Source: Escherichia coli (GTDB lineage: Bacteria > Pseudomonadota > Gammaproteobacteria > Enterobacterales > Enterobacteriaceae). From it: a DNA stretch of 64,000 nt. The position numbers and the translations under genes were made by a program. Below the pieces are notes generated by a model that ran no database searches, was not told where the DNA came from, and saw only the letters and a program-made list of their open reading frames with translations. The stretch is from assembly GCF_030384885.1 (NCBI RefSeq), contig NZ_CP128613.1; one strand, given 5' to 3'. Below, one piece after another: positions 48,416-48,502 of this stretch. The first letter of the stretch is position 1, and the number at the start of each line of letters is the position of its first letter.

Positions 48416-48437
48416 TCATACTTACCTTTTTGTACGT

Positions 48438-48454
48438 ACTTACTAAAAGTAAGT
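48438..48454. promoter_or_regulatory. Inverted repeat in the ytfH-qorB divergent promoter (candidate YtfH operator)
   Basis: ACTTACT-aaa-AGTAAGT perfect 7-bp inverted repeat, adjacent to the GTACGTAC palindrome. Confidence 0.5.
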
Positions 48455-48502
48455 TTAGGTGGTAGCGTATTTAAACACAAGACAAACCGATGGAGGCTTC
48501 CC

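What the first reader, a model, noticed from the sequence alone, without database searches (positions are those of the whole stretch)
48416..48502. Short divergent ytfH-qorB promoter with an ACTTACT-N3-AGTAAGT palindrome
An 87-bp intergenic region separates the HxlR-type regulator from the NmrA-like quinone oxidoreductase. The centred inverted repeat is a plausible YtfH operator controlling both genes, which would make this a compact redox or electrophile sensor-effector pair.
Basis: inference. Interest (0 to 1): 0.3.

Follow-up and report, generated by a model that had tools for sequence, protein, structure and literature searches.

The report
YtfH operator in ytfH–qorB promoter
The short DNA gap between a small regulator gene (ytfH) and a quinone-reducing enzyme gene (qorB) holds a very strongly conserved protein-binding site over both genes' promoters; it is an ordinary repressor-and-target switch of a known type, though nobody has yet mapped its binding site by experiment.

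Summary
The ytfH–qorB intergenic region is 87 bp (48416-48502) and carries an exact ACTTACT-AAA-AGTAAGT inverted repeat at 48438-48454. It sits 13 bp off centre, towards ytfH.

A 7-3-7 repeat alone is weak evidence: there are 7 in the window, and the chance of one in this spacer is about 1-8%. Conservation is decisive. In 77 Enterobacteriaceae genomes, 15 of 17 repeat columns are at least 97% conserved, against 3% of neutral fourfold-degenerate sites.

The repeat is only half of a 35-bp element. There are four hexamer half-sites, ACTTAC-N6-GTACGT | ACTTAC-N5-GTAAGT (48420-48454), forming two adjacent dyads. This layout persists next to YtfH homologues down to about 53% identity. A −10 hexamer for the partner gene always follows 8 bp later; here it is TGnTAGCGT at 48460-48468.

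The repeat therefore covers the −35/spacer of the inferred qorB promoter and a candidate ytfH −10. A 2025 preprint reports that CRISPRi of ytfH raises qorB by log2 4.6, the only gene changed.

YtfH keeps the family's sensing cysteine (C20). Best reading: a QorR/YodB-type thiol-switch repressor and its operator. It is a new member of a known kind and of modest interest. Binding, start sites and inducer remain untested.

The parts
48035..48415 (-). ytfH: HxlR/DUF24-type winged-helix regulator, 126 aa, with a single Cys (C20 in QCPSREVL)
   Evidence: Pfam HxlR E=2.8e-32. RefSeq annotation in near-identical genomes. PDB 1YYV is the Salmonella orthologue. C20 is conserved in 106 of 112 aligned representatives.
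48503..49363 (+). qorB (ytfG): NmrA-like NAD(P)H:quinone oxidoreductase, the regulated target
   Evidence: Pfam NmrA. PDB 2ZCU/2ZCV E=2e-173. It is the divergent partner in 77 of 80 Enterobacteriaceae loci. An NmrA-family gene (Pfam) is the divergent partner at 7 of the distinct distant homologue loci (L084, L085/86, L087, L089, L095, L096, L098/99); the partner at L092/93 and L097 was not classified, L090/91 has no divergent NmrA neighbour, and L088 and L094 are too short to show one.
48416..48502 (.). 87-bp divergent intergenic control region
   Evidence: The spacer length is 84-97 bp in 77 other genomes.
48438..48454 (.). It lies at −37 to −21 of the inferred qorB promoter.
   Evidence: In L085/86 both arms change symmetrically (CTTAC/GTAAG to CTTTC/GAAAG).
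48420..48437 (.). Dyad O1: ACTTAC-CTTTTT-GTACGT (half-sites 48420-25 and 48432-37). It abuts O2 and lies in the ytfH leader.
   Evidence: There is an 18-bp direct repeat of TACTTAC. The columns are 96-100% conserved apart from position 4 of each hexamer. Complementarity is 4.25 of 6 in register versus 0.8 when slid, across 12 diverse loci.
48460..48468 (+). Inferred qorB extended −10: TG-n-TAGCGT
   Evidence: T, G, T, A and the final T are invariant in all 77 genomes while the other positions vary. TAnnnT is present here in 100% of genomes. In distant homologues a −10-like hexamer follows 8 bp after the last half-site in most loci; L092 (CCAGAT), L098/99 (ATATGG) and L085 (TATAGG) lack the full TAnnnT there. 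The simple consensus scanner does not call it.
48440..48445 (+). Inferred qorB −35 (TTACTA, 17-bp spacer), embedded in half-site 3
   Evidence: Inference from spacing to the −10. TTAC is invariant.
48474..48476 (+). Predicted qorB transcription start (invariant AAC, 6-8 nt after the −10)
   Evidence: This is an inference; no TSS data could be retrieved.
48492..48496 (+). qorB Shine-Dalgarno sequence GGAGG
   Evidence: GGAG is 88-99% conserved.
48446..48452 (-). Candidate ytfH −10 inside O2: TACTTT here (48451 to 48446), TAACTT in genomes with T at 48451
   Evidence: One of the two registers is present in 98% of genomes. Inference only.
48425..48428 (-). ytfH Shine-Dalgarno sequence (AAGG on the − strand)
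   Evidence: Read from the sequence. The columns are invariant.
48417..48419 (-). Conserved upstream ATG, the ytfH start codon in most genera. It is out of frame in this lineage, where it opens a 5-codon mini-ORF.
   Evidence: Many orthologues are annotated as 128 aa rather than 126 aa.

Best explanation
The spacer is a compact, overlapping pair of divergent promoters controlled by YtfH, a thiol-switch repressor of the HxlR/DUF24 (MarR-like) family.

YtfH dimers bind a 35-bp bipartite operator made of four ACTnAC-type half-sites. O1 is 48420-37.

O2 covers the −35 hexamer and half the spacer of an extended −10 qorB promoter (TGnTAGCGT, 48460-68; predicted start about 48475). On the other strand it covers the likely ytfH −10. 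O1 lies over the first ~20 nt of the ytfH transcript. A bound repressor therefore excludes RNA polymerase from qorB and probably also limits its own synthesis.

Modification of the single conserved Cys20, by S-alkylation with a quinone or other electrophile or by oxidation to an intersubunit disulfide, is proposed to release the DNA and induce the quinone reductase.

Shown: the sequence features, their conservation and their geometry, and (from a preprint) de-repression of qorB on ytfH knock-down. Inferred: physical binding, stoichiometry, start sites, autoregulation and the inducing signal.
For: 1. The block 48418-48453 has 31 of 36 columns at least 97% conserved in 77 genomes, versus 3% of neutral fourfold sites.

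2. The only variable columns inside it (48423, 48434, 48451) are each position 4 of a hexamer. That is the pattern expected of repeated half-sites.

3. The layout ACTTAC-N6-GTnnGT-ACTTAC-N5-GTnAGy-N8 followed by a −10-like hexamer recurs in 12 of 13 loci whose regulators are only 53-69% identical; most of these hexamers are TAnnnT, with L092, L098/99 and L085 deviating. The 13th locus differs by one base.

4. The unanchored hexamers carry 1.5-1.9 bits per position, versus 0.7 in the spacers and 0.4 in the flanks. Dyad complementarity is 4.25-4.5 of 6, versus about 0.9 in slid registers.

5. In L085/86 both O2 arms change symmetrically.

6. TAnnnT at 48463-68 is present in 100% of genomes with an invariant TG two bases upstream.

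7. CRISPRi of ytfH in K-12 raises qorB by log2FC 4.6, the only differentially expressed gene. The K-12 operator is identical to the window's.

8. The footprinted operator of the family member HypR is a 7-2-7 inverted repeat, and QorR is described as a repressor of a quinone oxidoreductase.

9. C20 aligns with HxlR Cys11, described as the family's conserved electrophile/oxidant sensor. It is conserved in 106 of 112 representatives.

10. Three genomes that lost qorB keep ytfH and the O2 arms.
Against: - There is no binding experiment of any kind; the preprint states that none existed.
- No transcription start data could be retrieved. The simple σ70 scan calls no promoter here, so the promoter positions rest on conservation only.
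- O1 and O2 differ in internal spacing (6 versus 5 bp), which is unusual for two sites read by one dimer geometry.
- O1 also contains the ytfH ribosome-binding site, which explains part of its conservation in Enterobacteriaceae.
- The CRISPRi effect was seen in only ~4% of cells, in a single preprint. A dCas9 roadblock next to overlapping divergent promoters could change qorB transcription without acting through the YtfH protein.
- Some family members (HxlR, HypR) are activators.
- The HS2/HS3 hexamers were the alignment anchor, so their information content is inflated.
Confidence: 0.75

Rival explanations
1. The conserved block is just core promoter plus leader sequence: the qorB −35, the ytfH −10, the ytfH ribosome-binding site and the start codon. 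The dyad symmetry is incidental and YtfH binds elsewhere or not at all.
For: The block does overlap candidate −35/−10 elements and the ytfH Shine-Dalgarno sequence and start codon. A perfect 7-3-7 repeat is not rare by chance.
Against: - Real promoter elements here tolerate change at non-critical positions: 48462, 48466 and 48467 vary freely. The 36-bp block is almost invariant.
- In distant homologues the T-run/Shine-Dalgarno sequence and the start-codon distance change, but the four hexamers stay.
- Dyad complementarity is register-specific.
- One lineage shows a symmetric two-arm change.
- ytfH knock-down de-represses qorB.
Confidence: 0.08
2. The repeats act in RNA. The three ACUUAC/GUAAGU copies form alternative hairpins in the ytfH leader, one of which sequesters the AAGG ribosome-binding site. 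This would be a translational switch or thermometer.
For: Arms 48420-29 and 48445-54 are 90% complementary, and perfect with one G·U in RNA. The minimum-free-energy fold uses them. One paper lists ytfH as heat-activated in arrays.
Against: - The fold energy is no better than shuffles (z = −0.13).
- There is no Rfam match.
- The A/T change at 48451 and the T/A change at 48423 are not compensated by their pairing partners in most genomes.
- The candidate ytfH −10 lies inside the repeat, so the 5' arm would not be transcribed.
- The element is upstream of the inferred qorB start.
Confidence: 0.05
3. YtfH binds the element but works as an activator, as HxlR and HypR do. Alternatively, a different transcription factor is the main reader of the site.
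For: HxlR and HypR are activators within the same family. No binding data exist.
Against: - HypR's activating site lies at −53 to −95, upstream of the promoter. O2 lies at −37 to −21, a repressor position.
- Knock-down of ytfH raises qorB rather than lowering it.
- The element stays with the YtfH-type gene across loci whose regulators are only 53-69% identical and whose other flanking genes differ from locus to locus. That points to the adjacent regulator as its reader.
Confidence: 0.07

Closest known systems
QorR–qor2 of Corynebacterium glutamicum (Ehira et al. 2009, J Biol Chem 284:16736)
   Same: [quoted passage not shown] Some pipelines already label Citrobacter YtfH orthologues 'QorR'. 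From my memory of that paper, not checked here: the genes are divergent, the enzyme is a YtfG/QOR2 homologue, and a single Cys is required.
   Different: It is an actinobacterial protein and orthology was not tested here; the paper could not be read. Its operator sequence is therefore not compared. The four-half-site ACTnAC layout is documented here only for the YtfH subfamily.
YodB / CatR of Bacillus subtilis (and, from memory, the S. aureus YodB-like repressor QsrR)
   Same: MarR/DUF24 repressors inactivated through a conserved N-terminal Cys by quinones and diamide, de-repressing azoreductase, nitroreductase and dioxygenase genes (PMC3351151). YodB is a detectable structural relative (PDB 5HS7, E=4.6e-9).
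   Different: They have several unlinked targets rather than a single divergent neighbour, are Gram-positive, and have different operator sequences. YtfH is a one-Cys protein, so it cannot form a disulfide between two different cysteines; that leaves S-alkylation, S-thiolation or a symmetric Cys20-Cys20' disulfide.
HypR–hypO of B. subtilis
   Same: Same fold and the same conserved Cys position. The footprinted operator is a 7-2-7 inverted repeat, also present in the regulator's own promoter. This closely parallels the 7-3-7 O2 dyad.
   Different: HypR activates from −53 to −95 and is switched on by a Cys14-Cys49' disulfide. The YtfH site overlaps the core promoter, and knock-down data indicate repression.
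HxlR of B. subtilis (formaldehyde sensor; PDB 7BZD/7BZE/7BZG)
   Same: The name-giving family member. YtfH C20 aligns with its sensing Cys11.
   Different: HxlR is an activator that needs Lys13 for a Cys-CH2-Lys bridge. YtfH has C-P-S at that position, with no lysine.

Membership tests
HxlR/DUF24 (MarR-like) thiol-based redox/electrophile regulators | HxlR-type winged helix-turn-helix domain (PF01638) | tested here: met
   E=2.8e-32, 110.9 bits against a cut-off of 20.8. Relatives in the PDB include HxlR, HypR (YybR), YodB, YtcD and YdzF.
HxlR/DUF24 (MarR-like) thiol-based redox/electrophile regulators | Conserved N-terminal cysteine at the start of helix α1 (HypR C14, HxlR C11) | tested here: met
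   C20 aligns with the HxlR cysteine in the HMMER alignment, identified as Cys11 in PMC7835342. It is present in 106 of 112 aligned representatives.
HxlR/DUF24 (MarR-like) thiol-based redox/electrophile regulators | Dyad-symmetric operator of about 16-18 bp in the target promoter | tested here: met
   A 17-bp dyad (O2) plus an 18-bp dyad (O1), both conserved and register-specific. This is sequence evidence only.
HxlR/DUF24 (MarR-like) thiol-based redox/electrophile regulators | Physical binding of the regulator to that operator | not testable with these tools
   No EMSA, footprint, ChIP or DAP data were found.
HxlR/DUF24 (MarR-like) thiol-based redox/electrophile regulators | DNA binding or activity switched by oxidant or electrophile through the cysteine | not testable with these tools
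   Inference from the conserved cysteine only.
QorR-type regulator/quinone-reductase pair | Regulator adjacent and divergent to an NAD(P)H quinone oxidoreductase gene | tested here: met
   qorB is the divergent partner in 77 of 80 Enterobacteriaceae loci. An NmrA-family partner is recorded at 7 distinct loci of 54-69% identity. QorB matches PDB 2ZCU/2ZCV.
QorR-type regulator/quinone-reductase pair | Regulator represses the reductase gene | not tested
   Not tested here. It is reported for K-12 by CRISPRi in a preprint (log2FC 4.6, ~4% of cells). The operator position (−37 to −21) is consistent with repression.
QorR-type regulator/quinone-reductase pair | Orthology of YtfH to C. glutamicum QorR | not tested
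   The QorR sequence and paper were not available. Only annotation labels suggest it.

The most novel reading that the evidence does not exclude
The operator is a 35-bp four-half-site element rather than a simple palindrome. Two YtfH dimers would bind it side by side and shut two fully overlapping divergent promoters at once, with one half-site doubling as the qorB −35 and another holding the ytfH −10. Cooperative double occupancy plus autorepression could make the switch ultrasensitive or bimodal; qorB came on in only ~4% of knock-down cells. The physiological inducer may not be a classical quinone, because QorB's nearest solved relative after YtfG itself is triphenylmethane reductase.
Probability: 0.3. 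Interest if true: 0.45.

Novelty: new member of a known kind. Interest (0 to 1): 0.3.

Why it matters
YtfH is one of the remaining uncharacterised E. coli transcription factors. A base-pair-level operator and promoter model turns a single-cell CRISPRi hint into a directly testable single-target regulon. It names which hexamers to mutate, where the start sites should be (MG1655 4434052 on the − strand and about 4434088 on the + strand), and which residue (C20) to change.

The conserved operator-to-−10 geometry across distant homologues gives a transferable rule for annotating HxlR–NmrA pairs in the other bacteria that carry them. The compact module could also serve as an electrophile-responsive biosensor part. 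It does not change any paradigm.

Tried and rejected
**Experimental start sites.** The supplements of Cappable-seq (PMC4782308), ROSE (PMC10301672), Romero et al. 2014 (PMC4681348) and Tjaden 2023 (PMC10392735) were searched by gene name and by coordinate prefix. All came back empty or truncated. Thomason 2015 is not held.

**Published promoter hexamers.** Shimada's 'constitutive promoter' hexamers for this spacer (TCGACA-15-TACATT) do not occur in the K-12 locus, so they could not be used.

**Unavailable papers.** The QorR paper and the YodB/CatR paper are not held.

**Consensus promoter scan.** The simple σ70 scan finds nothing in the spacer. It was superseded by the phylogenetic −10 scan.

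**RNA readings.** An RNA-structure reading was rejected: fold z = −0.13 and no Rfam hit. A terminator reading was rejected because no terminator-like site is found there.

**Other copies of the motif.** At up to 3 mismatches only two weak matches appear elsewhere in the window, no more than chance.

**Close homologue list.** The homologous-protein output was saturated by close relatives of at least 87% identity. The representative search was needed to reach distant ones.

Full report
**1. What is there.**
The window comes from a divergent Escherichia lineage. It is 99.8% identical to E. coli 2013C-4282 and about 93% identical to K-12 and most E. coli.

- ytfH runs 48035-48415 on the − strand. 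It encodes a 126-aa protein with an HxlR-type winged-helix domain (PF01638, E=2.8e-32).
- qorB runs 48503-49363 on the + strand. It encodes an NmrA-like protein that matches the solved E. coli YtfG/QOR2 structure over its full length (2ZCU/2ZCV, E=2e-173).
- The gap between them is exactly 87 bp, 48416-48502.
- ACTTACT-AAA-AGTAAGT sits at 48438-48454 with perfectly complementary arms. It is the only exact copy in 64 kb.
- The repeat is displaced 13 bp from the centre of the spacer, towards ytfH.

**2. Is it more than chance?**
As a bare pattern, barely. The window contains 7 perfect 7-3-7 inverted repeats and 69 with spacers of 0-8. Resampling the spacer's own composition yields such a repeat in about 1% of trials (spacer 3) to 5-8% (any spacer 0-8).

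The strong evidence is evolutionary. I fetched 80 loci from different Enterobacteriaceae species.

- 77 of them keep qorB divergent from ytfH, with a spacer of 84-97 bp.
- Across 77 distinct spacers, 15 of the 17 repeat columns are at least 97% conserved.
- Fourfold-degenerate codon positions in ytfH and qorB of the same genomes average a 63% majority base. Only 3% of them reach 97%.
- The qorB-proximal half of the spacer drifts freely, so the constraint is local.

**3. The palindrome is half of a larger element.**
The constraint extends over 48418-48453, where 31 of 36 columns are at least 97% conserved.

- TACTTAC recurs 18 bp upstream, at 48419-25.
- GTACGT at 48432-37 reads ACGTAC on the other strand.
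- The only clearly variable columns inside the block are 48423 (T/A), 48434 (A/G) and 48451 (A/T). Each is position 4 of a hexamer.

This gives four half-sites of the form AC(T/G)nAC, arranged as two abutting dyads:

| Dyad | Coordinates | Sequence |
|---|---|---|
| O1 | 48420-37 | ACTTAC-N6-GTACGT |

In 62% of genomes the right arm of O2 is AGTTAGT. The perfect palindrome is therefore a trait of the Escherichia/Citrobacter lineage, not the ancestral state.

**4. The layout travels with the regulator.**
A representative-level search and context look-ups gave homologues of 53-69% identity.

- 7 distinct loci have a divergent NmrA-type partner (Pfam): L084, L085/86, L087, L089, L095, L096 and L098/99.
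- Three sets show no such partner on record. L090/91 has no divergent NmrA neighbour, although its far edge clips an NmrA-family gene. The partners at L092/93 and L097 are unclassified.
- Two further loci, L088 and L094, are too short to show a neighbour in the gene calls.

Twelve of 13 loci show ACTTAC-N6-GTnnGT-ACTTAC-N5-GTnAGy, followed 8 bp later by a −10-like hexamer; most are TAnnnT, but L092, L098/99 and L085 deviate. The 13th locus differs only in having GCTTAC as its first hexamer.

In 12 distinct sequences the hexamers I did not use as alignment anchors carry 1.86 bits (HS1) and 1.46 bits (HS4) per position. The intra-dyad spacers carry 0.72 bits and the flanks 0.39. Dyad complementarity is 4.25 of 6 for O1 and 4.5 of 6 for O2 in register, against 0.8-0.9 when the partner is slid by 1-2 bp.

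In L085/86 both O2 arms changed together, from CTTAC/GTAAG to CTTTC/GAAAG, while the upstream ACTTAC was kept. This is a symmetric double change of the kind expected for a dimer site. It is a single event, so it is only suggestive.

**5. Relation to the promoters (inferred).**

*qorB strand.* T48460, G48461, T48463, A48464 and T48468 are invariant, while 48462, 48466 and 48467 vary. That is the signature of an extended −10, TGnTAnnnT.

- TAnnnT is present at 48463-68 in 100% of genomes.
- An invariant AAC lies 6-8 nt downstream, at 48474-76, marking the likely start.
- GGAG at 48492-95 is the Shine-Dalgarno sequence.
- With a 17-bp spacer the −35 is TTACTA at 48440-45, inside half-site 3.
- O2 therefore spans −37 to −21, and O1 spans −55 to −38.

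*ytfH strand.* The A/T polymorphism at 48451 toggles between TACTTT (36% of genomes) and TAACTT (62%). As a result 98% of genomes keep a TAnnnT inside O2. If this is the ytfH −10, the start is near 48439 and O1 lies at +3 to +20.

The two core promoters would then overlap completely, and one occupied operator would silence both.

I could not obtain start-site data. A plain consensus scan calls nothing here. These positions are therefore predictions.

**6. Functional evidence from the literature.**

- The mapSPLiT preprint (10.64898/2025.12.20.695731, supplementary note 6) reports that CRISPRi of ytfH in K-12 raises qorB by log2FC 4.6.
- qorB was differentially expressed only in that perturbation, in ~4% of cells.
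- The preprint states that ytfH had no previous binding data.
- The K-12 operator is identical to the window's across 48417-48461.
- Of the 18 papers listed for 'ytfH' (19 hold the term), I checked the ytfH passages in five; none of those describes an operator.

**7. Family context.**

- HypR's footprinted operator is a 7-2-7 inverted repeat that also occurs in its own promoter.
- YodB and CatR are quinone- and diamide-inactivated repressors.
- QorR is described as a repressor of a quinone oxidoreductase that senses diamide and H2O2 (PMC3351151).
- YtfH's only cysteine, C20 in QCPSREVL, aligns with HxlR Cys11. PMC7835342 describes that residue as conserved and as the electrophile/oxidant sensor of MarR/DUF24 proteins.
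- C20 is present in 106 of 112 aligned representatives, and 71 of 122 homologues have a single Cys.
- YtfH lacks the Lys at +2 that HxlR needs for formaldehyde sensing.

**8. Rivals.**

- *Promoter-and-leader-only reading.* It fails to explain the near-invariance of the block compared with the real −10, the persistence of the hexamers when the ribosome-binding site and start codon move, and the register-specific symmetry.
- *RNA-switch reading.* It has no support: fold z = −0.13, no Rfam hit, and uncompensated arm changes.
- *Activator or foreign-factor reading.* It conflicts with the operator's position and with the direction of the CRISPRi effect.

**9. Natural experiments.**
Three genomes (L063, L073, L080) have lost qorB but keep ytfH. 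In all three the O2 arms survive, and L063 even has the perfect ACTAACT-AAA-AGTTAGT. By contrast the T-run/GTACGT part of O1, invariant elsewhere, has decayed. This fits O2 being the core autoregulatory operator and O1 mattering chiefly when qorB is present. Three genomes, two of them Lelliottia, make this weak evidence.

E. coli FORC_031 has lost ytfH and the operator through an IS1-mediated deletion.

**10. Verdict.**
This is a QorR/YodB-type thiol-switch repressor with its divergent quinone reductase. It has a well-defined but experimentally unmapped bipartite operator over overlapping promoters. It is a new member of a known kind and of modest interest (0.3).

Noticed in passing
window 48413-48419; K-12 locus L083 609-615: The ATG that serves as the ytfH start codon in most genera (window 48419 to 48417) is out of frame in Escherichia because of a 1-2-nt difference in a T-run. 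It opens a 5-codon mini-ORF in this window (ATG AAT GAG CCA GGC TAG). In K-12 it opens a 2-codon ORF whose stop overlaps the annotated ytfH start (ATGAAATGA). This could mean translational coupling, or simply a shifted start.
   Followed up: partly
L100 (E. coli FORC_031, NZ_CP013190.1) 1326-2523; L001 (JM109) 679-1376: There is IS1 activity at this locus. FORC_031 has an IS1-associated deletion that removed most of cpdB, all of ytfH and the operator, ending about 20 bp before qorB. JM109 carries an IS1 inside cpdB. FORC_031 is a ready-made natural ytfH/operator knock-out.
   Followed up: partly
L063, L073, L080 (Lelliottia spp. and Enterobacteriaceae bacterium RIT714), upstream of ytfH: qorB (and ytfF) are absent while ytfH is intact. 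The O2 dyad arms are retained, but the O1/T-run segment has diverged differently in each genome. L080 still carries the orphaned qorB −10 (TGaTAGTGT) and part of the leader.
   Followed up: partly
window 47925-48030: The cpdB–ytfH convergent gap contains repeated GCATCCGGC / GCCGGATGCG-type palindromic units that look like REP/BIME elements. I read this from the sequence only.
   Followed up: no
window 49364-49530: The ORF list starts ytfF at a GTG 10 bp after qorB (49373), but related genomes annotate the start about 100 bp later. Three promoter-like matches (49373-49402, 49448-49476, 49499-49527) and no terminator lie in between. Whether ytfF is co-transcribed with qorB, and so is part of the YtfH regulon, is open.
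   Followed up: no
QorB protein (window 48503-49363): After YtfG itself, the closest solved relatives are triphenylmethane reductases (2VRB, 2JL1, 2VRC; E about 1e-57). This hints that dye-like or other bulky electrophiles might be substrates or inducers.
   Followed up: no
L089 (GCA_022637355.1, CP093323.1) 1-416 and 2389-3426: The YtfH-like/NmrA pair in this genome is flanked by a MarR-family gene. A few hundred bp away lies a second HxlR gene next to a short-chain dehydrogenase, so there may be clusters of paralogous redox regulator/reductase modules.
   Followed up: no
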